Positions 242-27,634 of a stretch of 31,690 nucleotides of DNA are shown here, piece by piece. Numbering within the stretch: the first letter of the stretch is position 1; the number at the start of each line of letters is the position of its first letter. A program made the position numbers and the translations under genes. The notes below the pieces were generated by a model that was not told where the DNA came from, ran no database searches, and worked only from the letters and a program-made list of their open reading frames with translations. The stretch is from the NCBI GenBank assembly GCA_048938895.1, contig JBHLLU010000024.1, forward strand, positions 34,275 through 65,964. Direction: 5' to 3'. Source of the DNA: Promethearchaeota archaeon (GTDB lineage: Archaea > Asgardarchaeota > Lokiarchaeia > Sigyniarchaeales > SOKP01).

Positions 242-784
242 GTGAATAAAATAGAGCATAAAGGTTTTACATTATGGTTTACTGGGCTCCCCTGTTCAGG
301 GAAAACAGTTCTTGCGAATGCAGTTGCCGAAGACTTAAGAAAAAAAGGAATGAAAGTTGAAAGACTTGACGGTGATATAGTTAGGAAGAATTTAACAAGA
401 GATCTGGGGTTCACAGAAGAAGATCGAAATATGAATATTGAAAGAGTTACATTTGTAGCAAAGTTATTAACTCGAAATGGAGTAGCTGTACTTGCTTCAT
501 TTGTATCCCCATACAACAAAATTAGAGATTACTCTAGAAATGAAATTGGGAATTACATACTTGTTTATGTTAAGTGTTCACTTGAAGAATGCGAAGCAAG
601 AGATGTTAAAGGAATGTATGCAAAAGCGAGGGCTGGAGAAATAAAAGACTTTACAGGAATCGATCATCCATTTGAAGAACCGGATAGAATCGATATCCTT
701 GTTGAAACTGATAAGCAAACTATTGAAGAAAGTAAAAAAATTATTTTAAAGGCTCTAGAAGCTAAAGGGTATTTACCCAATTAA
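242..784 (+). CDS. cysC: Adenylyl-sulfate (APS) kinase
   Basis: P-loop WFTGLPCSGKT, LDGDIVR, LGFTEEDRNMNIER, RDVKGMYAKARAGEIKDFTGIDHPFEEP; 180 aa; GTG start. Confidence 0.96.
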   Translation: MNKIEHKGFTLWFTGLPCSGKTVLANAVAEDLRKKGMKVERLDGDIVRKNLTRDLGFTEEDRNMNIERVTFVAKLLTRNGVAVLASFVSPYNKIRDYSRNEIGNYILVYVKCSLEECEARDVKGMYAKARAGEIKDFTGIDHPFEEPDRIDILVETDKQTIEESKKIILKALEAKGYLPN

Positions 785-816
785 TTCTTTTTTCTTTTTT
801 TTCTTTGATTTTTTTT
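785..816 (+). terminator. Oligo-T tract, probable archaeal intrinsic terminator after cysC
   Basis: TTCTTTTTTCTTTTTTTTCTTTGATTTTTTTT immediately after the cysC stop, between convergent genes. Confidence 0.6.
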
Positions 817-851
817 GTATTTTAATCTACTAGTCTTCATAAAAGGAAGAT

Positions 852-2114
852 TTAATCGATATATCCCAATGCTTGTAATCTATCTAACACTTTCTCTTGT
901 TCTTCTTTTTTTAACCGTTCTCCAACAAAATCTTGAAATTTCAAACTTTCAATCTTTCTTCTTAATTCATCTACTAAATTGGGATAAATTTTTGCAACAT
1001 TATGTTTTTCATGTGGATCTTTAATTAATAGGTACAATTCCTCATTCTTTTTCTTCCGAAAAGGGGCATATATATATTTATATCTATTATCTACTCGAAT
1101 TCCCGATAACCAATCTTCTTTGTTAGGAATAGTGATACCTACTGCTTCTAGATATGCATCTCTATGGGGTAATTTTTCTCCTTTCATTATGGGCAACAAA
1201 CTTTTACCAGTTATTTCGTTCTGTAATGGTAGGTTAAGTAAATCTAAAATTGTTGGGAAAATATCAATATGTCGAATTTGTATAGTTGATTCAGCATGAG
1301 GTATATTCTTTGGATTATAGAAAATCAACGGAACCTTTACAAGATGGTCATACACATTATAACCATGTCCCACATGAATTGGGCGTATCATTTTAGCATA
1401 AGGGATTTTTAATATCCTATATTTCTTTAAAATTCGTACACCTTTTACAAGTAATTTCTTAGTATATCTTTCAAATTTTGAATGTGTAATGCTTTCACCA
1501 TGATCTCCTGTTATTATAACAGTTGTATCTTCTTTTAATAATTTAAGAACCTTACCAATATAGTTATCTATGCTAGCTATGGCTCTTGCATATCTTGATT
1601 TCCCATATTGTTCATTATTCATTTCTTTAAGAACCCGTCTAGGATGGTGTAGAGCCCAGATATGTAAAAGGACAAACCATGGTTCTTTAAAATGAGATTT
1701 GAACTTCTTAAGCAATTTCTCCCCCCATAATGTATGAATTGTCTCAATTCTCTCTCGATAATTGAATTCGTCAAATCCTTTGTCAAAACCTATTTCTTGC
1801 ACTACTGGTCCTGTTATTTCTGCATAAGTATTATACCCTTTTTCTTTTAATATTTCAGGACAGGTAACGATGTCTTTATTTAACGCATATCCAGAGTGAC
1901 TTCTCACTCCATTTTCAAAGGGATAAAGTCCAGTTAGCATACTTGAAAAAGAAGGAGTTGTAGTAGTTGTAGTCGCAATGGTATTAAGAAAACTGAATCC
2001 TTTTTCTTTTAATTTAGAGATATTGGGAATATGACTTTTTCCTGAGTCATAAATATAATCAGCTCTTAAACAGTCTACTACTATGAATAAAATATTTTTC
2101 ACATTTTCCACCAT
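852..2114 (-). CDS. Sulfatase-like hydrolase/transferase (alkaline phosphatase superfamily), Thr at nucleophile position
   Basis: NILFIVVDCLRAD, TTTPSFSSMLTG (in place of CxPSR), LHIWALHHP, ITGDHG, HIDIFPTIL, ELYLLIKDPHEKHNVA, C-terminal RLQALGYI. Confidence 0.85.
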   Translation of the reverse strand: MVENVKNILFIVVDCLRADYIYDSGKSHIPNISKLKEKGFSFLNTIATTTTTTPSFSSMLTGLYPFENGVRSHSGYALNKDIVTCPEILKEKGYNTYAEITGPVVQEIGFDKGFDEFNYRERIETIHTLWGEKLLKKFKSHFKEPWFVLLHIWALHHPRRVLKEMNNEQYGKSRYARAIASIDNYIGKVLKLLKEDTTVIITGDHGESITHSKFERYTKKLLVKGVRILKKYRILKIPYAKMIRPIHVGHGYNVYDHLVKVPLIFYNPKNIPHAESTIQIRHIDIFPTILDLLNLPLQNEITGKSLLPIMKGEKLPHRDAYLEAVGITIPNKEDWLSGIRVDNRYKYIYAPFRKKKNEELYLLIKDPHEKHNVAKIYPNLVDELRRKIESLKFQDFVGERLKKEEQEKVLDRLQALGYID

Positions 2115-4395: not shown

Positions 4396-6438
4396 CTATG
4401 ATCTTCTAGAGAGAATAAGAAGTATTACACCTAAAGCCGCTAAAGCTCCGCCTCCAGCACCTAAACTTAAAGCTAAAGTATCTCCTAGATCATATGGCGT
4501 CATAGGTAAGTTTTTATCGTCCTCAGCTAATTTGTTAACGAGTATATCTCTAAAAACTGGTAACCATTCTAATATTGCACTCATTTGTATAAAGTTTAAG
4601 CCACCGTTCTGTGCTTGTAATGTCGTATACATTGCATTGCCTTCTTTTGCTTTATACCAGTTATTGACACCCTTTACAGTAACTAACGAATAATCACTAT
4701 CTTCATCCCAAAGTAGGAAACATTGAGTTAGTGTAAGAGTTGATACATAGCTTAACCCAATCTCAAAATAAGGGGGTCCATAAATAGGTGGTGTCCGCTC
4801 AGATAGAAATCCTTCAGGAAGAACTACCTCTCCATTAATAGTTCCATTAGCCCATTGTTCATAGAAAGCTATAGTAGCAACCTGTGTCAGTGTTAGCCCA
4901 TAATCTAACTCAATCAAGTCCGCTGCTCTCCCGGTAGCAGGATCAGCACCAATGAGGGCTCCTAACCAGTTTAAAAGAGCAGTTAATTCACCTGTGCTAA
5001 TACCAAAAGATGCAATGATAGAAGCCTGAGCGGTTGTATCCATTTGCATAGCAGGTAACCACATACTCGAGTAACTATCTCCATAAATGAATGTTTTGTC
5101 ACTTAATGGATCCCATAGAGCTATGCATTCAGCTAATGAGAGACCACTGGCAGTTGGCAACCCAACTTCAAAGTATGGTGCTCCCGCAAAAGACGGATCA
5201 ACTTCACCGAGAAAACCACCAGGGAGAATGACCTCACCAAAAATGGTTCCATTTGCCCATTGCTCATAAAATGCCAAAATAGCTAGCTGACTTACTGTTT
5301 GTCCAGTAGCGTCCAAAACTAATGCAGGGGTAACATTATCAATGAAATTACTTAACCAGGTCAAAATCATTGTTAATTGAGTCGGTGAAAGACCGAAGGT
5401 ACCAATTAATGTCCCCTGGGCAGTTGGGTCTCCAAGTCCCGCAGCTATCCATGTTTCTATGCCACTATCATTTGTAAAGGATAATGGGAGTGAACTGTTC
5501 CATAGGTTCATGCACGTTGCAATAGAGATGTTTGTAGGAGCAGGGATTCCTGCTTCAAATCCTTTTAGCTCAGAAGTGCCAATAAATAACCCAATATCAA
5601 TTCCATCAGGGAAAAAAGTAGCGTTCGCCCATTGTCGATAAAATCCAGTTGCGATTGCTTCTGCTCTGGTGATTCCATAGTTATACTGAAACGCACTGGG
5701 CACAGCATAAGTGATAAGAGTCCAAATATAATCAAACGTGTTCCCGACTTGAGCTATTGTAACATTGTAGTGTCCAGGAATTACCGCATTGGTATATCCA
5801 TCACCACCCAGATATGCTATATAATAGAATATATCATATATCTCTTTCGCACCTGTTCCGTAAGTAGTATCTGTAATTATGCCATGGAAATAATAAGGAG
5901 TGATATATGCATCATAAAAGATACTATCTAACAGATTAGTCCGAGCGGTCAATGTATAGTTTTGGGCAACACCTGTGATATTGGAGACACCAGGTATTCC
6001 TGTATATGGGTCAACAAAAGTAGGATCATTAAAGAAGACATTTGTACCAGCATCAAAACCGTAAGTAAGGTTCAACCAATAGATTGAAAGGTTAACCAAT
6101 TGAGCAGCTGTTCCGAAATCAATAATATCCGGAATTTTAGCTTCGATCTCTGCCTTCAAGCCAAGAAGTGCGCCAGGGGTTGATTTTAATTTTAATAGGG
6201 GCTCCACACCAGCGGAAGCCGCATCGAATACTCCTTTAAGAACATCTGGTAGTCCTAAGACGGGAATTTGTTCCTCCAGAGCTGGAACTGCATCCGCTTT
6301 AATCTTAATCATGGCTTCAGGAACTCCATCAGAGACCAGATCTCGTAGATAATCGTTTGTAACTAAGCCCGTTGGTACTAAACCCGCACCAACAGCTAGC
6401 AAAACAATTGCAGTTATTAATTTAGATTTACTTGACAT
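4396..6438 (-). CDS. Membrane-anchored surface protein with N- and C-terminal hydrophobic helices and three internal ~124-135-aa repeats; possible CD36/LIMP-2 (LmpA)-related repeat
   Basis: N-terminal LITAIVLLAVGAGLV, C-terminal ALAALGVILLILSRRS. Repeated FY(R/E)QWAN(A/G)T...FE(A/V/I)G...C..LW...Q/EL..(I/L)L.WL. Many N-x-S/T sequons. Confidence 0.7.
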   Translation of the reverse strand: MSSKSKLITAIVLLAVGAGLVPTGLVTNDYLRDLVSDGVPEAMIKIKADAVPALEEQIPVLGLPDVLKGVFDAASAGVEPLLKLKSTPGALLGLKAEIEAKIPDIIDFGTAAQLVNLSIYWLNLTYGFDAGTNVFFNDPTFVDPYTGIPGVSNITGVAQNYTLTARTNLLDSIFYDAYITPYYFHGIITDTTYGTGAKEIYDIFYYIAYLGGDGYTNAVIPGHYNVTIAQVGNTFDYIWTLITYAVPSAFQYNYGITRAEAIATGFYRQWANATFFPDGIDIGLFIGTSELKGFEAGIPAPTNISIATCMNLWNSSLPLSFTNDSGIETWIAAGLGDPTAQGTLIGTFGLSPTQLTMILTWLSNFIDNVTPALVLDATGQTVSQLAILAFYEQWANGTIFGEVILPGGFLGEVDPSFAGAPYFEVGLPTASGLSLAECIALWDPLSDKTFIYGDSYSSMWLPAMQMDTTAQASIIASFGISTGELTALLNWLGALIGADPATGRAADLIELDYGLTLTQVATIAFYEQWANGTINGEVVLPEGFLSERTPPIYGPPYFEIGLSYVSTLTLTQCFLLWDEDSDYSLVTVKGVNNWYKAKEGNAMYTTLQAQNGGLNFIQMSAILEWLPVFRDILVNKLAEDDKNLPMTPYDLGDTLALSLGAGGGALAALGVILLILSRRS
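4550..5650 (-). repeat. Three diverged intragenic protein-level repeats
   Basis: The Trp codons of the QWAN motif lie at 5629-5631, 5257-5259 and 4852-4854 (spacings 372 and 405 bp). Outer boundaries are approximate. Confidence 0.8.
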
Positions 6439-6460
6439 AGTATATATTTTAACTTTTCAT

Positions 6461-6476
6461 TATTTAAATGTTTTTA
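6461..6476 (-). promoter_or_regulatory. Putative BRE/TATA promoter for a leaderless transcript of the surface protein gene
   Basis: The minus strand has an A-rich BRE-like run (AAAAACA) directly followed by TTTAAATA, ending about 23 nt upstream of the ATG at 6438. No SD motif is visible. Confidence 0.45.
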
Positions 6477-6626
6477 TAAATGGTTGAGTGAGTATTTTAC
6501 GTTCGTACTCTTAATTAAATCTGAATTTCAGAGATTCGGATTACATTTTTATCGATTTTTTAAAATTCTAGAACTTTATATCCCAAAAAGATGAAAGGTA
6601 ATGTAAATCAAATAGCTTTATTAAAT

Positions 6627-9930: not shown

Positions 9931-11568
9931 TTATCTTAGACAAAAACCACATTTCCCGAAAGATTGAATTGTTTGTTCCCAACAGTGGTGATGATATGCC
10001 CTATTACAATGTGGGCATTCTGTATGGCAACTATCTTCACCTGCTATTTTTTTAGCACAACTTGGGCATTCTATTTTATGACAAATAACACAAGATACCA
10101 CAGATACCTCAAAGATTTTCTTTGAAATTAGATTAAATAAATCTACAAGATAGCTAAATGTTGTCCATTCTTTAAAGAAGTCGTTAAATGAAGCATGTAA
10201 ATCATTCTTAATTTTCTCATGAGCTTCAATTTCAAATTCGTTAACCACTTTAATTTCTGGCATTTTCATTGGATAATCAGTAGGTAAATTAATTTGAAAT
10301 TCAAAGGTAAGATCTTCTGTTTTCATTTTTCCTTGCATCTCTATATGAAGATTGGCATTGATTGGGTCATATCTTATATTTTTATAATGATCTTTTAATA
10401 GATCAATTTCAAAGTTAATTCTCGAATTCTTATCTACTAACCATGAAAGTTCTCTTATAATTTCTACAACATCTGACTCCTTTTCTATCCAATTTTTATA
10501 AGATTTTAATTCTGAGATAGGAACATTGATGATTTGTTTAAGTTCAGATGAGATTTCTATAATAGGGGGTTTTGGATAAGGTTCTAAATCGACATCTATA
10601 ATATATTCCTTGAAACCATATGTAACTAGATGTACTTTTATGGATGTTAAACTTTCTGAAATTTTATCACATTCATATTCTCCAGATATGTTTTTATACT
10701 GAGATTCAATTTCTTTGATGAAATAAAGCTTCTTTTCCAATTCTCGTATTATTTCTATAATATGAGTAGGTTTTTTTGAATCCCAGCTGCTCAGAGACAT
10801 TAAAGCAGAATCTGGATCTTTCAAAATGGTTTTTACCTCTTCCGGTAATGAAATTTTTGGTTTTTTTGGAAAATTAGTAAAATCTATTGAAATTACAAAT
10901 GTTTTTGTTAGTGTAATTGTAATATACACATTAATTTCGGCTGCGTTTGTTCCTTTTTGATCGTAAGCATACTCTTGTTGAATTAATCCAAGTTCTGTTG
11001 CCAATTCTAAACTCAAGTGTTCATTTTCATCATATATAGGTTCATCTGGTGATTCAACATTTTCTTTAGAAGGTTCTATACTCGTTTGCTCACTATAAAA
11101 TTTATTGTTGTCATAATTTGAAGGTGTGACATAGTATTCTGGTTGAAATTCTTCGGGATAGGCATTTAGATCAGGAGTGACATACTCCACCTCATTTAAA
11201 TTTTCATAATTATCTCCGATTGTCTCCAAAGTGTCAATTTCTTCTTCTGATTGCTTTTTAATGTTATGCAATTTCTCTTGTATTTGTTTCTCGAGTTCCT
11301 TAACGATGTCAACTACATTATTCTCCGGTCTCCATTTCTGAAATTTCTCTAATTGGATTTCTCCTAATAATTCTTTTATTTCATTATGGAATTTCAAGTG
11401 AGGGGGTTTGTTTGGGAATGTTTCATCAAATTTTATCTCTAATTCATATTTTTTTTCTGGTGTTTCATATACATACCCATATAAATGAGCAATATTACCA
11501 GAAACCATCCAAAAAGAGAATTCCTTTGCTATTCTCTGGGCTTCTTTCAGTATTCGTTCTTTCTCCAA
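9931..11568 (-). CDS. Multi-UBC-like (UEV/RWD) domain protein with C-terminal C4HC3 RING-type zinc finger; putative E3 ubiquitin ligase
   Basis: Four repeats of the beta-strand + (F/Y)PxxP(P) motif, each followed by W...(V/I)(V/I)(D/E)(I/L) helix. C-terminal CVIC...CPHC....HHHCW........CGFC. TTG start. Confidence 0.7.
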   Translation of the reverse strand: MEKERILKEAQRIAKEFSFWMVSGNIAHLYGYVYETPEKKYELEIKFDETFPNKPPHLKFHNEIKELLGEIQLEKFQKWRPENNVVDIVKELEKQIQEKLHNIKKQSEEEIDTLETIGDNYENLNEVEYVTPDLNAYPEEFQPEYYVTPSNYDNNKFYSEQTSIEPSKENVESPDEPIYDENEHLSLELATELGLIQQEYAYDQKGTNAAEINVYITITLTKTFVISIDFTNFPKKPKISLPEEVKTILKDPDSALMSLSSWDSKKPTHIIEIIRELEKKLYFIKEIESQYKNISGEYECDKISESLTSIKVHLVTYGFKEYIIDVDLEPYPKPPIIEISSELKQIINVPISELKSYKNWIEKESDVVEIIRELSWLVDKNSRINFEIDLLKDHYKNIRYDPINANLHIEMQGKMKTEDLTFEFQINLPTDYPMKMPEIKVVNEFEIEAHEKIKNDLHASFNDFFKEWTTFSYLVDLFNLISKKIFEVSVVSCVICHKIECPSCAKKIAGEDSCHTECPHCNRAYHHHCWEQTIQSFGKCGFCLR

Positions 11569-16850: not shown

Positions 16851-17759
16851 TTGCCAGTACTTGAAAAGTTCCGTGTTGATTTTATCGGAATCGGTGTAAT
16901 GAAAGCAGCATCCTCATGGATTTTTGAATGTCTTAGAGAACACCCCGAAATATGCATGTGTTCCGAAAAGGAACCACATTTTTTTGATTGGCCATTTAGG
17001 TATAAGAAGGGCTTAAAATATTATTCTTCTCTTTTTAGTCATTGTTCTCAAGATAAATTAAAGGGAGAATTTACAGCTAGTTATATTCGCTTTCCAGAAG
17101 CCCTATTGTTAATAAAAAAGCACTTTCCTAATGTAAAATTAATAATTTCATTAAGAAATCCAATTGATAGAGCTATGTCTCAGTATAAATATAATGTACA
17201 ACTAGGTGGAAGGTTAAGTATTTATAAAGATTTTAGAGAAGCTCTTGAAAATGATGAAGATAATATTGTCGAAAGAGGTTTTTATTTCAAGCAATTACAA
17301 AGTTGTTTCGATATTTTCCCAAAAGAACAAGTATTAATCTTGCTTTTCGATGATATTAAAAGCAATCCATTTTTGTTTTTACAACAAATCTATAGATTCT
17401 TAGAATTAAAAGATCTAAATTTTATGCCTAGTCTTTTAAATAAAAAAGTATTACAAACGGGGAGTAAGTCAGCACAGAATAAAATCCCCTTTTTATCAAC
17501 TATTATATTTGGAATGGGGAATTTGATAAATAAATATTCTAAATTAAAGTATATTATATCCACAAGTCAATTTATGGAATATATTAGAAGAATTGTAAAT
17601 TTTAACAGAAAATTTTCATTTCAAGAGAAGGAGAATGAAACTTTAAAAATCAAGGTTGATAATGAAACACGAGAATATCTTTACGAGATTTATAGAGAGG
17701 ATATTGAAAAATTAGAAATATTTCTAGATCGGGATTTAAGGTCTTGGAAAATTGCATAA
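16851..17759 (+). CDS. PAPS-dependent sulfotransferase (heparan-sulfate N/3-O-sulfotransferase-like fold)
   Basis: 5'-PSB loop FIGIGVMKAASSW, KEPHFFD, GEFTASY, 3'-PB SLRNPIDRAMSQY, C-terminal Y..DI.KL..FL.RDL.SW; TTG start. Confidence 0.88.
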   Translation: MPVLEKFRVDFIGIGVMKAASSWIFECLREHPEICMCSEKEPHFFDWPFRYKKGLKYYSSLFSHCSQDKLKGEFTASYIRFPEALLLIKKHFPNVKLIISLRNPIDRAMSQYKYNVQLGGRLSIYKDFREALENDEDNIVERGFYFKQLQSCFDIFPKEQVLILLFDDIKSNPFLFLQQIYRFLELKDLNFMPSLLNKKVLQTGSKSAQNKIPFLSTIIFGMGNLINKYSKLKYIISTSQFMEYIRRIVNFNRKFSFQEKENETLKIKVDNETREYLYEIYREDIEKLEIFLDRDLRSWKIA

Positions 17760-17891
17760 TAAATCTTTATTTTTTGGTATTTAACATTTTAATCAAATTT
17801 TTAACCTTATAGTAATTCTCCTTAATACAATAGTTCAATTAAATCATAAACCTGCTAATCTAATTAACTATTTAATAGGTAGGATGCTTAA

Positions 17892-19400
17892 ATGAATATC
17901 TTCTGGATTGTAACTGATTCAATATGCAATTATGAAAGATCTGATCTACATGGATTACTCCCAATCTATAAGACACTAAAAAATAGCAATGAAGGTTTTT
18001 ATTTTGAAAATGCTCTAGCTCAATTTCCCTCAACAGTACTCTCTATTTTTTCCTTTTTAACTGGTAGATTTCCATATTATATCTTTTCAGATTTTGATAA
18101 ATTAACTAAAACACTCCCGAGTTTAAAAGATAGAAATTTTATAACTCAATTAAAATACAACGGGTATAATATAGAATCTATTTTATTCTGGAGAGAAGGT
18201 GTGGATTTCCTTAAAGAAATTCTTAACCCTTATGATGATAGGGAAATTTTTAAGGGAGATCATTGGCTTGATGCCAAAGAAATTTATGATATCTTCCTAA
18301 AGCAAATTAAACGATTGAAAATTGATGAAGACAATTTTTATTTTATCTTTTTTAGGCCAAGCGATCCTCAAACTGATTTTTGTTTAACAGAAATTATTAA
18401 ATATTTAGAAGACAATTCTCTGTGGAAAGAATCAATATTCATTCTGAATTCAGATCACGGATTTTATGATAAGAACCTTTATAAAAGAATTAAATTATTG
18501 CATTTTGATGATATTCATCAGAGTTCATTACGTTCTGCAATGTTTATGAAAATTCCTTTAAGTTTAACCAATACTTCACCAAGAATTATTGAAAAACGAG
18601 TGTACTTATTCGATATCATGGAGACAGTTTTGGATTATTTAGGTTTTCAGATAGATTATGAACGGGAATCTCTATCATTTAAAGATTTGATTGAAAAAAA
18701 AATTGACATCAATATTACTCGAAAAGTAAGATCAGATTGTTATTTGATATTTCAATCAATTGAAAAAGCTGCAATTTTTCAAAATGATTGGAAGCTTTAT
18801 ATTAACAATGGAAAATATTCCTTATTTGATCTTTCTAAAGATCCACTTGAGAAGAAGGATGTAAGCAAGGTGAATCCAAGAATTTATAAAGATTTATATA
18901 ATTTTTATCTAACAACTGAAGTGCAAGCAAGTGATATTTTCATCTCTGGCTTAAATGATTTTTTTGATGATTCTGTTTTAAAAGGCTTAAAATCAGAATA
19001 CATTTATCTCCCTGATCAATTTCCCCCACAAATTGTAAAATTTCTCAAAGAGCAACTTAAAATCAATAATAAAATAATTTCTCCCATGGAATTAAAAAAC
19101 AATGCCTTATTTAAGAAACAGAAAAATCTAGTTACAATTCTGATTTTCAACAGAATGACAGGATATGGCATAAAAAGGTTACGGAGAAAATTACGAAAGT
19201 ATACTAAGCGTTTCATATTTATAGATACTTCATTATCAGATGCCTCAGGCAGAGCAAACCAAGCAGGATATGTAAAATTTATCATTAATTCGATAATCAA
19301 AAGAAGAAGTCAATTATTTCAAAGATGGAAGGAAATTCTAGTATGGATTTTATATTTCCCCTTTTATTTTAATATGCAGATTAGAAAGTATTATAATTAA
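17892..19400 (+). CDS. Sulfatase-like hydrolase/transferase (alkaline phosphatase superfamily) with basic/hydrophobic C-terminal extension
   Basis: NIFWIVTDS, FENALAQFPSTVLSIFSFLTG, ILNSDHG, FDIMETVLDYLG, LFDLSKDPLEKKDV. Confidence 0.75.
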   Translation: MNIFWIVTDSICNYERSDLHGLLPIYKTLKNSNEGFYFENALAQFPSTVLSIFSFLTGRFPYYIFSDFDKLTKTLPSLKDRNFITQLKYNGYNIESILFWREGVDFLKEILNPYDDREIFKGDHWLDAKEIYDIFLKQIKRLKIDEDNFYFIFFRPSDPQTDFCLTEIIKYLEDNSLWKESIFILNSDHGFYDKNLYKRIKLLHFDDIHQSSLRSAMFMKIPLSLTNTSPRIIEKRVYLFDIMETVLDYLGFQIDYERESLSFKDLIEKKIDINITRKVRSDCYLIFQSIEKAAIFQNDWKLYINNGKYSLFDLSKDPLEKKDVSKVNPRIYKDLYNFYLTTEVQASDIFISGLNDFFDDSVLKGLKSEYIYLPDQFPPQIVKFLKEQLKINNKIISPMELKNNALFKKQKNLVTILIFNRMTGYGIKRLRRKLRKYTKRFIFIDTSLSDASGRANQAGYVKFIINSIIKRRSQLFQRWKEILVWILYFPFYFNMQIRKYYN

Positions 19401-19519: not shown

Positions 19520-21211
19520 ATGAGCTTTAAAAATCGTATTTCACCTGAAATTAGAAGGAGATCCCTAAAAGATATATTAAGCAAAAGGAATTTTGTAAGA
19601 GTTATAGAAGTCCATAATGGTTTAAGTGCGATAATAGCTAACAATATTAAAGAGCAGAGGGAAGATGAAGTTTTAGAATTTGATGCTTTATGGGAGAGTA
19701 GCTTAACAGATAGTGCTGCAAAAGGATATCCTGATGCTGAAATAATTGGACCAGAGTCAAGGTATGAAACTATACGCCAAATATTACAAAGTTCAAATAA
19801 ACCGTTGATAGTAGACGGAGATACTGGTGGTGAAGCAACCAATTTTGAATTTTTTGTTAAAAATCTAGAAGATCTAGGGGTTTCGATGGTTATAATTGAA
19901 GATAAAGTATTTCCCAAAAGAAATAGCTTAGAACCAGGCGCTAACCAAACTCAAGAGGATCCTGACATATTTGCGACGAAAATTAAAAGAGGTAAAAGTG
20001 TTTTATTTTCAAAAGATTTTCTAATAGCTGCAAGAATTGAAAGTCTTATTTCAGGTGCAGGATTAGAAGATGCAATCCTTAGAGCAAGAAAATATTTGTT
20101 AGCTGAAGCGGATGCTATAATGATTCATTCTAAAGATTCTAATCCTGAGGATGTTCTTAATTTTGCTGTTAAATATGATAAATTAAGCTCTGAGATTGGT
20201 TTTAGAAAACCTTTGATTTGTGTACCAACAACTTATAATACAATTAAGGAAGAAGATTTAAGAAAGAGTGGTTTTAATATAGTTATTTATGCCAATCACC
20301 TGCTAAGATCAAGCCATAAAGCCATGGTTGAAACCGCTTCCTTAATATTAAGGAATCAGAGAGGATTTGAAGCAGAACCCATGTGTAGCCCTGTAAAAAC
20401 CATTTTTCAAGATGTTGGATTCTTAGAAGTAAAGGAAAAAGATAAAATATACGCTAAGAGTAAACATCATGTTATAATTCCTGCTGCCGGTGTAGAATCT
20501 ATTTTTGATCACCCTAAATCCATTTTAGAAATAAAAGGAAAAACAATAATTCAAAGGCAATTAGAGATTCTTAATAGCTGTGGAATATATGATGTTGTGG
20601 TTATAAGGGGATTTAAGAAAGAGCTTCTCAACATTCCGGGAGTTAAATATATTGATAACGAACACTACGAAGATTATGGGCTTCTCTATTCCTTATTTAG
20701 AGCAGAAAAGGAAATGGAAGGAGGATTTATTTATATTAATTCAGATATCCTTTTTGATTCTCAGATTATTAATTCTTTGTTAGAAACTAGAAGAGATATT
20801 GTATTAGTTGTTGATAATTCCTATACTTATCATAAACATGAAATAGATAAAAGATTGGATTTAGTAATGACTTCAAAAAAACCCACTAATCAACAGAGAT
20901 TTCTTTATTCTAGGGATAATGAAATAATAAGAATTGGTAAGAATATTGATAAAAATATGGCAGATTATGAATATATAGGAATTGCCTACTTCTCTGAATA
21001 TGGTGTAGAGATAATCAAGCAAATATATCAAGAGTGTACTACAAATAAAAAAGAATGTTTTCATGCTATATCTATAGAGAAAGCAACTTTCAATGATTTT
21101 ATTCAAGAAATTATAGATCGAGGTTTTAAAGTCCACACATTGGAGATTCATAAAGGATGGTTAGAGATTCATAACAAAAAAGATGTTGATTTAGCTGAAA
21201 AGCTACTCTAA
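19520..21211 (+). CDS. pepM: Phosphoenolpyruvate mutase fused to C-terminal nucleotidyltransferase (LicC/PntC-like) domain
   Basis: EVHNGLSA, WESSLTDSAAKGYPD, DGDTGG, PEP-mutase signature EDKVFPKRNS (19898-19927), ARIESLI, IMIHS, VPTTY, IYANHLLRS. From aa ~316: VIIPAAG...PKS...SDILF...GWLEI. Confidence 0.95.
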   Translation: MSFKNRISPEIRRRSLKDILSKRNFVRVIEVHNGLSAIIANNIKEQREDEVLEFDALWESSLTDSAAKGYPDAEIIGPESRYETIRQILQSSNKPLIVDGDTGGEATNFEFFVKNLEDLGVSMVIIEDKVFPKRNSLEPGANQTQEDPDIFATKIKRGKSVLFSKDFLIAARIESLISGAGLEDAILRARKYLLAEADAIMIHSKDSNPEDVLNFAVKYDKLSSEIGFRKPLICVPTTYNTIKEEDLRKSGFNIVIYANHLLRSSHKAMVETASLILRNQRGFEAEPMCSPVKTIFQDVGFLEVKEKDKIYAKSKHHVIIPAAGVESIFDHPKSILEIKGKTIIQRQLEILNSCGIYDVVVIRGFKKELLNIPGVKYIDNEHYEDYGLLYSLFRAEKEMEGGFIYINSDILFDSQIINSLLETRRDIVLVVDNSYTYHKHEIDKRLDLVMTSKKPTNQQRFLYSRDNEIIRIGKNIDKNMADYEYIGIAYFSEYGVEIIKQIYQECTTNKKECFHAISIEKATFNDFIQEIIDRGFKVHTLEIHKGWLEIHNKKDVDLAEKLL

Positions 21212-21238
21212 AGTTTTATTTAAAAGTGATTAAAAAAG

Positions 21239-22375
21239 ATGATTGAATCTTTGGGTGTTGGTTCTATCCAGAACCTACAACGCATTTTAAAAAGCATTAA
21301 TTCTAAGAGAGTATTTTTTATCACAGGAAATTCTTCTTTAGAGAAACCAAATATTAAGAAAGTTAAATCCATAATTAGAAAAGAATGTGAAATTTACCAT
21401 TTTGATGAAATTTCCTCAATCCCCTCTATTGAAGGTGTAAAAATTGCTTTAAATTCATTTAGGAAAAGTAATAGTGATGTTATTGTTGCGATGGGGGGAG
21501 GATCAGTATTAGACATAGGAAAGAGTGTATCGATATTTTCTACCAATAAAGGAAATATCGAGGATTATCTTTTTAAGAAAATTTCGTTTAGAAAGAAGGG
21601 AATTCCATTAATTTTAATACCAAGCACGGCTGGTACAGGAAGTGAAGCAACTCATTTTGCTGTAATTTTCAAAGAAAAAACAAAATATTCGTTGGCTGAT
21701 GAGAAATTTATGCGAGCCGATTATATCATTGTAGATCCTGAATTAACATATAGCCTTCCAAAGAGGATAACCGCTTATACCGGTATGGATGCATTTTGTC
21801 AAGGAATAGAATCATTTTGGAATATAAATTCTACAGACGAATCAAAAGAATATGCAAAGAAAGCAATTAGGCTGATAATGAATAACATAGAAAAAGCAGT
21901 TAACTCCCCCGATGAAGAATCTAGATATAATATGGCTATTGGAGCTAATTATGCAGGCAAGGCAATAAATATAACAAAGACAACAGCCGCTCATGCAATT
22001 TCTTATCCTATTACATCATATTTCAATGTACCTCACGGTCTTGCTGTAGCGTTAACTATATCCTCTATGATATTCTTTAATGCAGGTGTAAATAAGAATG
22101 ACGTGTTGGACCCTCGTGGACTTGAATATGTAAAAAAAATCATGGATGAAGTAAAATTACTAATCGGTGCTCGTACCTTTATTGAGGCTCAAGAAATTGT
22201 CAATAATTTGATTAAAAAAATCGGTTTAGAACTAAAGTTATCAGAATTAGGAATATCAAGCCAAAGTGATTTGGAAATTATTGTAAAGAATGGGTTTAAT
22301 CCTGAAAGGGTAAAAAATAATCCAAGATTATTAACAGAACCTCAATTAAGAGAAATTTTAGAGGGAATTAAATGA
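21239..22375 (+). CDS. Phosphonoacetaldehyde reductase (group III Fe-dependent alcohol dehydrogenase, PhpC/FomC-like)
   Basis: GGGSVLDIGK, IPSTAGTGSEATHFAV, GMDAFCQGIESFW, GKAINITKTTAAHAISYPIT, HGLAVA, RVKNNP. Located between pepM and ppd. Confidence 0.88.
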   Translation: MIESLGVGSIQNLQRILKSINSKRVFFITGNSSLEKPNIKKVKSIIRKECEIYHFDEISSIPSIEGVKIALNSFRKSNSDVIVAMGGGSVLDIGKSVSIFSTNKGNIEDYLFKKISFRKKGIPLILIPSTAGTGSEATHFAVIFKEKTKYSLADEKFMRADYIIVDPELTYSLPKRITAYTGMDAFCQGIESFWNINSTDESKEYAKKAIRLIMNNIEKAVNSPDEESRYNMAIGANYAGKAINITKTTAAHAISYPITSYFNVPHGLAVALTISSMIFFNAGVNKNDVLDPRGLEYVKKIMDEVKLLIGARTFIEAQEIVNNLIKKIGLELKLSELGISSQSDLEIIVKNGFNPERVKNNPRLLTEPQLREILEGIK

Positions 22376-23088
22376 AAGTTATAATATTAAATGCTGGAAT
22401 TGGTAAAAGGTTGGCACCATTAACGAATAATCTTCCGAAATGTTTGGTCAAAATAGATGAAAGAAATACCATCTTAGATCATCAATTAAAGATTATAACT
22501 AAGGTTGGTTTTACAGATTTCATAATTCCAACGGGTCCATTTGAGAATAAAATAAAAAAACATATTAAAAATAACTATCCATTCATTAAAATCCAATATG
22601 TTAACAATCCAATTTATGATAAATCTAATTACATATATTCTTTATACCTGGCTAAAAAAATAGTTGACGATGATATTTTATTTTTGCATGGAGATTTAAT
22701 ATTTTCTGAAAAATTAGTAAAATTAATACTTGATTCAAAGGAAATAGATTGTGTCTTGGTAAACAAGGAGATACCACCTCCAGAAAAAGATTTTAAAGCC
22801 ATAATTATAGATGAAAGAATAGAAAAAATTGGTGTGAATCTAACTGGGAGTAATGCGGCTTTCTTAGCTCCGTTATATAAACTATCAATAGGATTTATGG
22901 AACAATGGTTTAAAAGAATTGAAGAGTTTATTAAAAAGGGTAAAGTAAATTGTTATGCTGAAGATGCTTTAAATGAATTATTAGGCGATCTTATCTTAAA
23001 ACCCTGTTATTTTGATGAATTTTGTGTTGAGATTGATGATCATGAAGATTTAGAAAGAGTAAAGAATTATATATCTAAACTTAAATAA
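22372..23088 (+). CDS. Phosphocholine/phosphonate cytidylyltransferase family protein (LicC/PntC-like)
   Basis: IILNAGIGKRLAPLTNNLPKCL, NPIYDKSNYIYSL, LHGDLIF, EIDDHEDL. ATGA overlap with the upstream gene. Confidence 0.85.
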   Translation: MKVIILNAGIGKRLAPLTNNLPKCLVKIDERNTILDHQLKIITKVGFTDFIIPTGPFENKIKKHIKNNYPFIKIQYVNNPIYDKSNYIYSLYLAKKIVDDDILFLHGDLIFSEKLVKLILDSKEIDCVLVNKEIPPPEKDFKAIIIDERIEKIGVNLTGSNAAFLAPLYKLSIGFMEQWFKRIEEFIKKGKVNCYAEDALNELLGDLILKPCYFDEFCVEIDDHEDLERVKNYISKLK

Positions 23089-23105
23089 ATAAAGAACTTT
23101 ATTAG

Positions 23106-24242
23106 ATGAAAATGATTTCTTGCGAAGATTTTATTTCTATTTTGAATAGATATGACTTTGGATTTTTTACAGGAATCCCAGATTCAACGTTTAAAGATTT
23201 GATGAAATTCTTAAGTGAAAATGATTCCGAAAACCTTAATAATATTATCACGTGTAATGAATGCGAAGCTATCGCTTTAGCTTCAGGTTATCATCTTGCG
23301 ACAAATAAAGTCGGAATTGTGTACATGCAAAATTCAGGGCTTGGAAAAGCCGTTAATCCTCTTACTTCATTATGTGATCCTGAGGTTTACTCTATACCAA
23401 TTTTACTATTAATTGGATGGCGTGGAGAACCAGGTAAACCAGATGCGCCCCAGCACAAAAAAATGGGGAAAATTACCTTACCATTATTAGATACACTTCA
23501 GATACCTTATATTCTTATGAAAGATGATTTGGATAGTATTGAAACTGGAATACAACAAGCAAAAAAATATTGTTTTGAAAAAAAGGGACCTTATGCTTTT
23601 GTATTTCCTCGTAATTTCTTCAAAGAGTATGAAATGAAAGAAAAACGATTAAATAATTATTCATTAACTTCGAGTGAAGCAATTCATCTAATTATGGATA
23701 ACCTTACCAATAATGAAATAATTGTATCCACTACTGGTTATATTTCCAGGAAATTATTTGAATATAGAGAAACAAGGAATCTTGAGCATGGCAAAAGCTT
23801 TTACAATATTGGTTCGATGGGTTGTGCTAGCTCAATAGGATTGGGTATAGCCCTTCAAAAACCAAATAAGAGAGTAATAATTTTTGATGGAGATGGTGCT
23901 GCAATTATGCAATTGGGAGCATTTTCTACAATTGGAAAAAATGCACCCCCGAATTTTGTACATATAATATTTGATAATGAAGCTCACGAATCCACTGGGG
24001 GTCAACCTACCTCCTCTTCAATAATAAATTTTACACAGATTGCTGATGCATGCAATTATAAATTAACTTGTTTAATAAAAACTCAAAAAGAATTGTTGAG
24101 TTGTATAGAAGAAATTAAATCTGCTAAAGGTCCAATCCTAATCCATATAAAAATAAATTTCTTAGATAATACAAGATTAAAAAGACCAGATAGGCTTCCC
24201 AAAGAGTATAAAGAAGAACTAATGGATATACTAAAGCTTTAA
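23106..24242 (+). CDS. aepY: Phosphonopyruvate decarboxylase
   Basis: FFTGIPDS, NECEAIALASGYHLAT, YMQNSGLGKAVNPLTSL, IGWRGEPGKPDAPQH, VSTTG..SR.LFE, GSMGCASS, ThDP motif DGDGAAIMQLG...FDNEAHESTGGQPT. Confidence 0.93.
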   Translation: MKMISCEDFISILNRYDFGFFTGIPDSTFKDLMKFLSENDSENLNNIITCNECEAIALASGYHLATNKVGIVYMQNSGLGKAVNPLTSLCDPEVYSIPILLLIGWRGEPGKPDAPQHKKMGKITLPLLDTLQIPYILMKDDLDSIETGIQQAKKYCFEKKGPYAFVFPRNFFKEYEMKEKRLNNYSLTSSEAIHLIMDNLTNNEIIVSTTGYISRKLFEYRETRNLEHGKSFYNIGSMGCASSIGLGIALQKPNKRVIIFDGDGAAIMQLGAFSTIGKNAPPNFVHIIFDNEAHESTGGQPTSSSIINFTQIADACNYKLTCLIKTQKELLSCIEEIKSAKGPILIHIKINFLDNTRLKRPDRLPKEYKEELMDILKL

Positions 24243-26731: not shown

Positions 26732-27634
26732 ATGTCAAAGTCAGTATTTGTTATCGGTATTCAGAGATCTGGTACAACTTGGTTAGCAAACCTACTTTGC
26801 AACCATAGTAAAATTGTAGGAGTTCAACGAGAGCCTTTTGGAATACTTGAAAGTGCCTATTTTAGTCATGTCGATAATTTCTTTGGAAACCTCAGAAGAA
26901 ATCATAACTTCATCCAATTTGTTGAAACATATGCAAGTTCAGATTATTTTAGAGCAACTGGACTCGATAAGGACCTTTTATATAAAAATAGGCCAAAAAC
27001 TTATAGTCAAGCATTTAAACTTATTATGGATACTCTCGCAGAAAAGCATAATGCAGATTATTGGCTAGAAAAATCACCAGCTCATTCACTATATCTAAGA
27101 AAAATATCGATATATTTCCCTGATGCTAAATTTATTAGGATAAAAAGAAATCTCTATGACGTGATTACATCTGCGATTAGAAAAACTCATATTAAAAACA
27201 AACTTATGAAGAAAATCTATATTTTAATTAGACTTATTCAATATCGTAAATATGAATCATATATAAAGAAATTTGAATCTCAGACAAACCGCTTGTTAAT
27301 GCTTAGCTATGAATCAGTGCGAAAGAATATTGAAAATAATATGAATGACATTTGCAAATTCTTAGGAATCAACTTTGAACCAAATATGTTAAAAACTGAT
27401 TATAAACCGAATACCAGTTTTGAGAGTTTCGTTAATACTACGGAAAGGAAGACTGTATTAACTAATTCTGAAAGAAAATTAATCAAAATGCTAAATACTA
27501 TCTTAAAAGTCATCCCATTTAATATATATAGGATAATTTTCTATTTTCAAGTAAATGTGCGAAAAAAAGGATTCCCTAGGTGGTTTTGGATGTATTATGA
27601 GAAAGACAAATTTCAAAAGATAATAATTAAATAA
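26732..27634 (+). CDS. PAPS-dependent sulfotransferase (sulfotransferase_3-like)
   Basis: VFVIGIQRSGTTWLANLL..H, WLEKSPAH, FPDAKFIRIKRNLYDVITS, LSYE, ICKFLGINFEPNML. Confidence 0.88.
   Translation: MSKSVFVIGIQRSGTTWLANLLCNHSKIVGVQREPFGILESAYFSHVDNFFGNLRRNHNFIQFVETYASSDYFRATGLDKDLLYKNRPKTYSQAFKLIMDTLAEKHNADYWLEKSPAHSLYLRKISIYFPDAKFIRIKRNLYDVITSAIRKTHIKNKLMKKIYILIRLIQYRKYESYIKKFESQTNRLLMLSYESVRKNIENNMNDICKFLGINFEPNMLKTDYKPNTSFESFVNTTERKTVLTNSERKLIKMLNTILKVIPFNIYRIIFYFQVNVRKKGFPRWFWMYYEKDKFQKIIIK

What the first reader, a model, noticed from the sequence alone, without database searches (positions are those of the whole stretch)
4396..6438. Hairpin membrane protein whose repeats resemble the luminal insert of Dictyostelium LmpA (CD36/LIMP-2 family)
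Seen: one hydrophobic helix at each terminus, a ~620-aa ectodomain, about a dozen N-x-S/T sequons and three repeats, each with one conserved Cys. Repeat 1 reads FYRQWANAT...TNISIATCMNLWNSSLPLSFTNDSGIETWIAAGLGDPTAQGTLIGTFGLSPTQLTMILTW. My recollection of D. discoideum LmpA contains a co-linear segment (FYQQWANAT...SNISI...LFNSS...G..LWINALLGD......L.....L...Q..MILNW). This is from memory and unverified. CD36/LIMP-2 proteins share the two-terminal-TM topology. I do not see the CD36 beta-barrel core here, so the protein may consist only of the repeated helical insert. If real, it would be a prokaryotic relative of a domain in a lysosomal/phagocytic scavenger receptor.
Basis: partly seen in the sequence, partly recalled or inferred. 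Interest (0 to 1): 0.8.

Follow-up and report, generated by a model that had tools for sequence, protein, structure and literature searches.

The report
Barrel-less CD36-apex protein of Lokiarchaea
This archaeal surface glycoprotein is built from three copies of the same helical module that sits on top of the Dictyostelium lysosomal receptor LmpA, and related archaea carry complete CD36/LIMP-2-type receptors with that module, which ties a eukaryotic scavenger-receptor family to the closest archaeal relatives of eukaryotes.

Summary
The ORF at 4396-6438 (-) encodes 680 aa with one hydrophobic helix at each end, 12 N-x-S/T sequons (about 4 expected) and three ~130-aa repeats.

The interpretation also holds. 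An HMM built only from 17 named eukaryotic CD36 inserts hits exactly three of 11,858 ORFs in this genome. These are this ORF (E 2.7e-53) and two paralogues.

The protein has no CD36 barrel. Pfam gives no match, and the AlphaFold2 model (pLDDT 90) is almost all helix.

New here: true CD36-family genes (Pfam E down to 1e-98) occur in 28 of 400 genomes of the window's phylum. That includes 8 of 53 genomes of its own genus, and MAGs named Hodarchaeales and Kariarchaeaceae. They carry the same module at the same apex site as the amoebozoan proteins. The window protein also shares its N-terminal anchor with the Loki CD36 proteins.

Best reading: it is a barrel-less offshoot of an Asgard CD36 lineage that displays apex modules on the cell surface. 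A role in binding or adhesion is inferred, not shown. The module matches no solved fold. I found no paper describing archaeal CD36.

The parts
4396..6438 (-). Whole gene: 680-aa hairpin-anchored surface glycoprotein (P0001)
   Evidence: ORF with ATG start. It has full-length orthologues at 45-67% identity in Loki-type MAGs. A profile of the family matches 97 of 400 genomes of the phylum.
6355..6438 (-). N-terminal anchor, aa 1-28: a Lys-rich stub followed by a hydrophobic helix with a G-x-G-L-x-P-T-G motif
   Evidence: Hydropathy. K4, K6, G17, G19, L20, P22, T23 and G24 are >=90% conserved in 50 sequences. An HMM of aa 1-60 matches the N-termini of all 8 Loki CD36 proteins in a 27-sequence set: E 5.6e-14 to 7.1e-09 for six, 5.7e-06 and 0.0026 for the other two.
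5674..6354 (-). N-domain, aa 29-255: long stalk helices (39-61, 63-126) plus a globular helical part
   Evidence: AF2 secondary structure. The family HMM 'Ndom' matches inside the CD36 insert of Heimdall-type proteins (E 6e-26 to 1e-42) and of the ciliate protein (1.7e-10). phmmer aligns query aa 27-417 to P0164 aa 226-612.
5299..5673 (-). Repeat 1, aa 256-380: the copy closest to the LmpA insert
   Evidence: BLASTP against LmpA aa 233-339 gives 35% identity over 113 columns, E 7e-07. hhalign against the eukaryote-only alignment gives 99.7%. The sequon at N272 is kept in 50 of 50 family members.
4894..5298 (-). Repeat 2, aa 381-515
   Evidence: AF2 of this repeat alone gives pLDDT 89.8 and pTM 0.83, with seven helices. 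hhalign against the eukaryotic insert gives 99.6%.
4489..4893 (-). Repeat 3, aa 516-650
   Evidence: hhalign gives 99.5%. Repeats 2 and 3 of the stand-alone proteins form one clade, SH-aLRT 95.
4396..4488 (-). C-terminal anchor, aa 651-680: a Gly-rich hydrophobic helix followed by R-R-S, then the stop codon
   Evidence: Hydropathy. G663 and G670 are >=90% conserved. There is a weaker match to the C-terminal anchors of Loki CD36 proteins, domain E 4.9e-05 to 2.4e-03.
6439..6626 (-). 188-bp A+T-rich spacer upstream of the gene, with a TATA-like TTTATAAA about 40 nt before the ATG
   Evidence: Read directly from the sequence. It is not tested and is only a candidate own promoter.

Best explanation
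The gene encodes a cell-surface N-glycoprotein of a Lokiarchaeial (Promethearchaeota) genome. It is held in the membrane by a helix at each end.

Its ectodomain is the 'apex module' of an Asgard CD36/LIMP-2-type receptor without the CD36 beta-barrel. It consists of an N-domain with a long helical stalk and three tandem copies of a ~125-aa helical domain (R). [quoted passage not shown] The insertion point is between the parts that align to LIMP-2 on either side of the a4/a5 region. This is seen in Heimdall-type and Loki archaea, in Amoebozoa (including D. discoideum LmpA) and in one ciliate transcriptome.

The window protein also shares the N-terminal anchor of the Loki CD36 proteins. I therefore read it as a paralogue that lost, or never had, the barrel and multiplied the R domain.

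Shown: the homology, the architecture, the absence of a barrel, and the occurrence in Asgard genomes.

Inferred:
- The ectodomain faces outward and is glycosylated.
- Because the CD36 apex is the ligand-contacting part of the family, the protein works as a binding or adhesion module for external ligands or partner cells, not as a lipid tunnel.

My odds are about 0.95 for the homology and architecture and about 0.4 for the binding/adhesion role. The figure below weighs the two.
For: Homology
- Library-wide phmmer hits to CD36-bearing proteins lie inside their insert. Pfam CD36 was found in 9 of 10 picked hits and in 5 of 7 further hits over its cut-off, with a sixth just below it.
- A local CD36 C-part HMM marks 15 of the 150 listed hits.
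- Names: Cavostelium, Endostelium, Pelomyxa and Muranothrix; Kariarchaeaceae, Hodarchaeales and Heimdallarchaeota MAGs.
- LmpA itself aligns at aa 233-339, 35% identity, with FYQQWANAT and the other recalled motifs.
- Reciprocal test: the eukaryote-only HMM hits 3 of 11,858 ORFs of the genome at E<=10, this ORF best at 2.7e-53.
- hhalign gives 99.5-99.7%.

Same insertion site
- In Endostelium, the Heimdall-type protein and the Loki protein, the N-part ends at the LIMP-2 segment NIPVLTVI. The C-part resumes 2 to about 20 residues later in the chain.

No barrel
- Pfam, NCBIfam and PDB sequence searches are empty at E<=10.
- The AF2 model has pLDDT 90.3 and pTM 0.71 and is helical throughout.

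Shared anchor.

Surface glycoprotein
- Positive residues flank both anchors and sequons are enriched.
- The gene lies among nucleotide-sugar enzymes, GT2/GT4, a flippase, APS kinase, sulfotransferases and phosphonate-pathway genes.
- It evolves faster than its neighbours: 50-64% identity against 77-85% for IleRS.

Family
- Three paralogues in this genome differ in module number.
- R also occurs fused to PKD and LVIVD repeats, as expected for an extracellular module.
Against: - No experiment or expression data exist; no RNA run could be listed.
- This genome has no CD36 gene at all (98.7% complete), so the protein cannot act together with one.
- Direct phmmer of the whole protein against the 14 CD36-family proteins (mostly named dictyostelids), scaled to the big library, is only marginal. 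E runs from 2.4e-4 to 0.07 and only 4 of 14 are reported. The link to LmpA needs profiles or intermediate sequences.
- The trees do not give a direction. Deep nodes of the CD36 tree are open, and the eukaryote/Asgard split has support 51. In the R-domain tree the Cavostelium copy falls on the stand-alone side, and the main split is 91, unstarred.
- The relation of the N-domain to R is not established (30% probability).
- Conserved neighbours were found in only 3 of 8 loci tested.
- The glycoproteome paper on P. syntrophicum found little glycosylation overall (PMC11284389, passages read).
- Signal-peptide cleavage of the N-terminal helix was not tested.
Confidence: 0.75

Rival explanations
1. 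It is a structural coat protein. As an abundant, heavily glycosylated membrane-anchored protein, it would form the glycocalyx or envelope of a Lokiarchaeon that lacks a classical S-layer, with no specific ligand.
For: - Sequons are enriched in 50 of 50 members.
- The gene lies in a large glycan synthesis, sulfation and phosphonate cluster.
- Paralogues vary in repeat number and carry 17 and 32 sequons.
- It diverges fast relative to its neighbours.
- Papers report no S-layer protein detected in P. syntrophicum (PMC11284389, passages), so another coat component is needed.
Against: - No match to any S-layer family in Pfam or NCBIfam.
- Anchoring by both ends and the homology to a receptor apex are not typical of lattice proteins.
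- The family is missing from 13 of 53 genomes of the genus, although MAG incompleteness weakens that point.
- Abundance is unknown.
Confidence: 0.3
2. The module and the CD36 genes of Asgard archaea were acquired from eukaryotes (for example amoebae) by horizontal transfer. On this view the window protein derives from a eukaryotic gene.
For: - CD36 is patchy in Asgard genomes: 28 of 400 over the cut-off.
- The deep nodes of the CD36 tree are unresolved.
- The CD36 family is otherwise known only from eukaryotes (PMC10715195, abstract and passages).
Against: - Asgard CD36 sequences form lineage-specific clades (Loki 100, Heimdall-type 93) and are not nested in any eukaryotic group.
- They sit as intronless ORFs on contigs of 93 kb and 28.6 kb among ordinary prokaryote-type genes.
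- Every CD36-less hit that carries a name is from Asgard-type MAGs, apart from one 'bacterium' MAG fragment and one repetitive marmoset match I discount. Among them R also stands alone or beside PKD or LVIVD repeats, in 97 of 400 genomes, while all five named eukaryotic hits with a real domain match carry it inside CD36.
Confidence: 0.12
3. The resemblance to LmpA comes from shared composition (N/S/T-rich glycoprotein, aromatic residues) or from convergence, not from common descent.
For: - Both proteins are sequon-rich.
- One listed hit, a marmoset protein with 18 short stretches (P0229), looks like such a compositional match.
- The protein-language-model atlas gave no usable hit.
Against: - The alignment covers about 110 columns of the repeat, with co-linear invariant W/Q/E/G positions.
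- The eukaryote-only HMM hits nothing else among 11,858 ORFs, even at E<=10.
- The N-domain is co-linear as well.
- The insertion site is identical.
Confidence: 0.01

Closest known systems
Dictyostelium discoideum LmpA (DdLIMP, Q9XYS8): apex expansion of a CD36/LIMP-2 homologue
   Same: - R domain at aa 233-339, 35% identical to repeat 1, with the F-Y-x-Q-W-A-N-x-T sequon motif, a second degenerate half-copy at about aa 388-439, and many sequons.
- One TM helix at each end (PMC2148220, passages).
   Different: - LmpA has the CD36 barrel on both sides of the insert (local HMM E 3.3e-72), one full R rather than three, and no detectable N-domain.
- It is an endolysosomal protein of a phagocyte.
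CD36 / LIMP-2 / SR-B family (Pfam PF01130; structures 4F7B, 4Q4B, 5LGD)
   Same: - Hairpin topology and a glycosylated ectodomain.
- The window protein's modules are homologous to what occupies the family's apex, the ligand-contacting region, in several lineages.
- Its N-terminal anchor is homologous to that of Loki CD36 proteins.
   Different: - No barrel and no tunnel.
- No Pfam or PDB sequence match.
- No conserved cysteines.
- It therefore cannot move lipids the way the family is thought to.
Asgard CD36-family proteins found here (e.g. MHA2363615.1 Hodarchaeales, MHA2249150.1 Kariarchaeaceae, MCY3415128.1 Heimdallarchaeota; 775-aa ORF in a same-genus genome, L021:9701-12028)
   Same: - N-domain + R (Heimdall type) or half an R (Loki type) at the apex site.
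- The same N-terminal anchor (Loki type).
- The same phylum and, for 8 of 53 genomes, the same genus.
   Different: They contain the full CD36 domain (Pfam E 1.8e-98 and 4.9e-98; LIMP-2 E 5.5e-43 and 3.5e-51). The window protein and its genome do not.
Archaeal S-layer and surface glycoproteins
   Same: C-terminal membrane anchor, sequon richness and a glycan-gene neighbourhood.
   Different: No sequence similarity to any described S-layer family, a second anchor at the N-terminus, and an all-helical ectodomain rather than Ig-like or beta-rich domains.

Membership tests
CD36 / LIMP-2 / SR-B (PF01130) | Match to the CD36 family profile over the curated cut-off | tested here: not met
   Pfam gives 0 families at E<=10. 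PDB sequence search gives 0 at E<=10. Positive controls with the same tools: Asgard and amoebozoan relatives score E 1e-31 to 1e-98.
CD36 / LIMP-2 / SR-B (PF01130) | Asymmetric beta-barrel ectodomain core with a tunnel | tested here: not met
   The AF2 model has pLDDT 90.3. DSSP shows helices throughout and only two 3-residue strands. This is a prediction, not a solved structure.
CD36 / LIMP-2 / SR-B (PF01130) | One transmembrane helix at each terminus with short cytoplasmic tails | tested here: met
   Hydropathy peaks lie at aa 3-28 and 654-678 only. K/R residues lie on the outer flanks of both helices. The N-anchor is homologous to that of Loki CD36 proteins. Cleavage of the N-terminal helix was not tested.
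CD36 / LIMP-2 / SR-B (PF01130) | Helical apex between the N- and C-parts of the barrel (a4/a5 region) | tested here: inconclusive
   The protein's N-domain and R are homologous to the expanded apex of some members. With no barrel, position cannot be assessed. Fold searches did not list LIMP-2 or CD36.
CD36 / LIMP-2 / SR-B (PF01130) | Conserved ectodomain disulphides (metazoan members) | tested here: not met
   There are three Cys, each at a column that is Cys in only 13-22 of 50 relatives. PMC10715195 reports the disulphide pairs mainly in bilaterians (passages).
LmpA-type apex expansion domain ('R domain'; no database name) | Significant, co-linear similarity over the whole ~110-aa unit, including the F-Y-x-Q-W-A-N-x-T motif and the invariant Q, W, E, W | tested here: met
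   Each of the three repeats gives 99.5-99.7% against the eukaryote-only profile.
Archaeal S-layer proteins | Similarity to a described S-layer family, or formation of a lattice | tested here: not met
   No Pfam or NCBIfam family matched. Lattice formation is not testable with these tools.

The most novel reading that the evidence does not exclude
The CD36/SR-B scavenger-receptor scaffold, together with a large helical apex (N-domain + R), arose in Asgard archaea and passed to the first eukaryotes. The big apex of amoebozoan LmpA-type proteins would then be the ancestral state, and the three-helix apex of animal CD36/LIMP-2 a reduced remnant. Proteins like the one in this window would be free-standing versions of that ancestral ligand-sensing head, used by Lokiarchaea to recognise partners or particles at their surface.
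Probability: 0.3. Interest if true: 0.9.

Novelty: new variant of a known kind. Interest (0 to 1): 0.78.

Why it matters
CD36/LIMP-2/SR-B proteins are central to lipid uptake, phagocytosis and lysosome biology. They have been treated as a eukaryotic invention present in LECA. Their expanded apex regions are described as lineage-specific, independently evolved and 'lacking homology to known protein domains' (PMC10715195, passages).

This window shows that the amoebozoan apex expansion has clear homologues in Asgard archaea. Following it up shows that Asgard genomes, including MAGs labelled Hodarchaeales, carry the complete receptor with the expansion at the same site.

That adds a candidate to the list of eukaryotic signature proteins connected with endolysosomal and phagocytic functions. 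It gives an experimentally tractable handle, because cultured Lokiarchaea and Dictyostelium genetics are both available. It also reopens the question of what the ancestral apex looked like.

The window protein itself is a new architecture: the receptor head without the barrel. It may tell us what the head does on its own.

Tried and rejected
Searches and tests that led nowhere
- Protein atlas, whole protein and repeat 1 alone: no usable hit.
- The search for homologous proteins with the Cavostelium insert as region query returned only the query itself. I replaced it with a profile of seven CD36+insert proteins.
- Fold searches gave nothing specific.
  - Foldseek/PDB, whole model: 0 matches at E<=1e-3, best a designed helical toroid at 1.4e-2.
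  - VIA-align wide, whole model: best Z 9.2 over 70 residues, on helical hairpins formed by the two terminal helices. That is within the tool's stated noise for helical models.
  - Repeat 2 alone: Foldseek gave 8 matches at E<=10 and none at <=1e-3. VIA-align wide gave 0 of 48,161 chains with Z>=5; the best were Z 3.3-3.9 on homeodomain-type three-helix bundles.
  - LIMP-2 and CD36 were not listed in any of these four searches. This is an absence of evidence only.
- RNA evidence: no RNA holder listed.
- Idea that the N-domain is a fourth, degenerate repeat: hhalign gave only 30% probability. Not established.
- Idea that the Cys form disulphides: rejected.
- Idea that the gene context is universally conserved: only 3 of 8 loci keep it.
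- Trees could not settle the direction of descent.

Correction to my notebook: it says 13 of 14. Recounting the output gives 12 of 14. P0282 and P0286 had no hit with the three-repeat HMM; P0282 does hit with the family HMMs.

Literature
- These searches returned nothing on archaeal CD36: CD36+Asgard, CD36+Heimdallarchae, CD36+Lokiarchae, 'scavenger receptor'+'Asgard archaea', CD36+eukaryogenesis and LIMP+Asgard.
- The apex preprint has 0 occurrences of 'archaea' or 'prokaryot'.
- Supplements were not opened. Supplementary ESP tables of Asgard genome papers, and Table S4 of PMC11284389, could bear on novelty and on glycosylation of an orthologue.
Full report
THE OBSERVATION

The window has about 30% G+C. 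At 4396..6438 on the minus strand it carries an ATG-started ORF of 680 aa.

- Hydropathy windows above 1.6 occur only at aa 3-28 and 654-678.
- There are 12 N-x-S/T sequons. Shuffles give 4.1 +/- 1.9, and 0 of 2000 reach 12.
- Three tandem repeats (about aa 256-380, 381-515, 516-650) match each other at E 6.7e-20, 1.3e-11 and 1.9e-30.
- Each repeat has one Cys at the same column, but in 50 aligned relatives that column is Cys in only 22, 13 and 17 sequences. The Cys is therefore incidental.
- Pfam, NCBIfam and the PDB sequence library give nothing at E<=10.

WHOSE GENE IT IS

The word-indexed search found 112 relatives. All names given by sources are Promethearchaeota, Lokiarchaeota, Thorarchaeota or Hermodarchaeota MAGs, apart from one 'bacterium' fragment and one sediment metagenome record.

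A profile of 50 full-length members matches 97 of 400 genomes of the window's phylum. That includes 84 of 134 in its family and 40 of 53 in its genus.

The window's own genome (98.7% complete, 7.5% contamination) has two paralogues on another contig:
- a 552-aa protein with the N-domain plus two repeats and 17 sequons;
- a 961-aa protein with an internally triplicated N-domain plus about three repeats and 32 sequons.
Both have hydrophobic helices at both ends.

THE LINK TO CD36 AND LmpA

An exhaustive phmmer search of 1.84 billion representatives gave 159 hits at E<=1e-3. I picked ten of the more distant hits by length. Nine carry Pfam CD36 split into two stretches, and the tenth carries PKD domains. 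A local HMM of the CD36 C-part marks 15 of the 150 listed hits.

The named CD36-bearing hits fall in two groups.
- Eukaryotes: Cavostelium, Endostelium, Pelomyxa ('lysosomal integral membrane glycoprotein') and the ciliate Muranothrix.
- Archaeal MAGs: Kariarchaeaceae, Hodarchaeales and Heimdallarchaeota, with CD36 E-values of 4e-83 to 2e-89.

In all of them the region matching the window protein lies between the two CD36 stretches.

A profile of seven eukaryotic proteins then retrieved 14 further CD36-family proteins. Most are from named dictyostelids (Dictyostelium, Polysphondylium, Acytostelium); three carry no species name. An HMM made only from the window protein's three repeats hits 12 of these 14.

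The 90% cluster of one of them contains D. discoideum AX4 LmpA (Q9XYS8, 779 aa).
- LmpA aa 233-339 aligns with repeat 1 at 35% identity over 113 columns.
- A weaker half-copy lies at about aa 388-439.
- LmpA has 19 sequons, the number given in the original paper.

CONTROLS

- Profile-profile comparison of each repeat with an alignment of the insert from 17 named eukaryotes gives 99.5-99.7% probability, E 1e-22 to 1e-26.
- The HMM of that eukaryote-only alignment was searched against all 11,858 six-frame ORFs of at least 60 aa in the window's genome. It hits exactly three at E<=10: this ORF (2.7e-53, three domains) and the two paralogues.
- The regions of the eukaryotic proteins were chosen with Asgard-derived HMMs, but their residues are independent.
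- Against this: direct phmmer against the 14 CD36-family proteins, scaled to the big library, is only marginal (2.4e-4 to 0.07, 4 of 14 reported). The atlas searches were also blank.

ANATOMY OF THE SHARED UNIT

I built family HMMs for the N-domain (aa 29-255) and for each repeat, and mapped them on the relatives.
- Heimdall-type CD36 proteins, two unnamed metagenomic ones and the ciliate protein contain N-domain + one R.
- Amoebozoan proteins contain one R.
- The CD36 proteins of the window's own family contain only the C-terminal half of R, directly before the C-part of the barrel.

The insertion point is the same in all three groups. The N-part ends where LIMP-2 reads NIPVLTVI, and the C-part resumes 2 to about 20 residues later in the LIMP-2 chain. 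This holds for Endostelium, a Heimdall-type ORF of 917 aa and a same-genus Loki ORF of 775 aa. The GBE paper places eukaryotic apex expansions at helices a4/a5 (section read).

An HMM of the first 60 residues of the window family also matches the N-termini of all 8 Loki CD36 proteins. E is 5.6e-14 to 7.1e-09 for six of them and 5.7e-06 and 0.0026 for the other two, in a 27-sequence set. The match includes the L-x-P-T-G-x-x-x-N-D-[FY] stretch. The C-terminal anchor matches more weakly.

STRUCTURE

AlphaFold2 with 50 sequences gives pLDDT 90.3 and pTM 0.71. The model is almost entirely helical. A helix runs from the N-terminal anchor into the ectodomain (3-37), followed by stalk helices 39-61 and 63-126, three similar helical domains, and helices 616-641 and 648-677. 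There is no barrel.

Repeat 2 folded alone gives pLDDT 89.8 and pTM 0.83, with seven helices.

No search found a convincing solved relative. The best for the single repeat is Z 3.9.

ASGARD CD36 GENES (BEYOND THE FINDING)

PF01130 matches 29 of 400 genomes of the phylum, 28 over the cut-off. These include 20 of 134 in the window's family and 8 of 53 in its genus, but not the window's genome.

Two loci were inspected. The ORFs of 775 and 917 aa are uninterrupted. They lie on contigs of 93 kb and 28.6 kb among AIR-synthase-related, MoCF, QueC, radical-SAM and PIG-L genes. They match LIMP-2 at E 5.5e-43 and 3.5e-51, and CD36 at 1e-39 and 3.8e-47.

A tree of the C-part (38 rows, quick method) gives a Loki clade (100), a Heimdall-type clade (93) and amoebozoan clades. 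The deep nodes are open. Named eukaryotes and Asgard rows fall on opposite sides of one branch with support 51, which is neither shown nor rejected.

In the R-domain tree (54 rows), 13 of 14 eukaryotic and 5 of 5 Asgard CD36-embedded copies lie on one side of a branch (91, unstarred). On the other side lie 29 of 30 stand-alone copies. Repeats 2 and 3 form a clade (95).

CONTEXT

The gene lies between IleRS and a GDP-mannose-dehydratase-like gene. The surrounding region holds APS kinase, two sulfatase-like genes, three further nucleotide-sugar epimerase/dehydratase-type genes, GT2, GT4, a flippase-like protein, two sulfotransferases, PEP mutase, a TPP decarboxylase-like enzyme, Fe-ADH and nucleotidyltransferases.

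The order UBC/RWD - IleRS - this gene - GMD is kept in 3 of 8 loci tested, all from the same genus. There the protein is 50-64% identical while IleRS is 77-85% identical.

INTERPRETATION

Shown:
- The protein is a hairpin-type membrane protein.
- Its whole ectodomain is homologous to the apex expansion of CD36-family proteins of Asgard archaea and of Amoebozoa, including LmpA.
- It lacks the barrel.
- It belongs to a variable multigene family.

Inferred: it is exposed on the cell surface and N-glycosylated. It acts by binding something external, as the apex does in CD36-family receptors. A purely structural coat role is the main rival.

The direction of descent is open. Two things favour an archaeal home for the module. 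All five named eukaryotic hits with a real domain match carry R inside CD36. The CD36-less hits that carry a name are Asgard-type MAGs (apart from one 'bacterium' fragment and a repetitive marmoset match), and among the CD36-less hits R also occurs beside PKD or LVIVD repeats.

NOVELTY

Six literature searches found no paper on archaeal CD36. The main paper on CD36 apex evolution does not mention archaea and calls the expansions independent and without known homology.

Noticed in passing
L021:9701-12028 (+), L022:9573-12326 (+), L009-L020; proteins P0164, P0167, P0175, P0235: Complete CD36/LIMP-2-family genes occur in Asgard archaea: 28 of 400 genomes of the phylum over the Pfam cut-off, including 8 of 53 of the window's genus. 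MAGs named Hodarchaeales, Kariarchaeaceae and Heimdallarchaeota carry giant versions of 1333-1648 aa. I found no paper describing this.
   Followed up: partly
G000 contig C140 (L023:2963-4621 -, L024:3630-6515 -): Two paralogues of the window protein lie in the same genome, with different module counts (552 aa and 961 aa) and 17 and 32 sequons.
   Followed up: partly
window 19520-24242 (+): PEP mutase fused to a nucleotidyltransferase, Fe-alcohol dehydrogenase, a second nucleotidyltransferase and a TPP-dependent decarboxylase-like gene. This looks like a phosphonate (hydroxyethyl- or aminoethylphosphonate-type) pathway, placed in a glycan cluster.
   Followed up: no
window 242-2114, 16851-19400, 26732-27634: APS kinase, two sulfotransferases and two sulfatase-like genes lie around the glycosyltransferases, which suggests sulfated surface glycans.
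   Followed up: no
window 24352-26637 (+): A 761-aa protein with about 12 hydrophobic segments and no Pfam match lies inside the glycan cluster. It may be a polymerase- or transferase-like membrane protein.
   Followed up: no
window 9931-11568 (-) and 29208-31340 (+): Two eukaryote-like signature genes: a 545-aa protein with UBC (E2) and RWD domains, and a 710-aa protein with an Arf/Ras/Roc-type GTPase domain.
   Followed up: no
proteins P0254 (900 aa) and P0228 (802 aa): The R domain also occurs next to PKD domains and next to LVIVD repeats in metagenomic proteins, so it is a mobile extracellular module.
   Followed up: no
protein P0229 (Callithrix jacchus, 1443 aa): This listed hit has 18 short matched stretches to query aa 296-323. 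It looks like a compositional or repeat artefact and not a relative.
   Followed up: no
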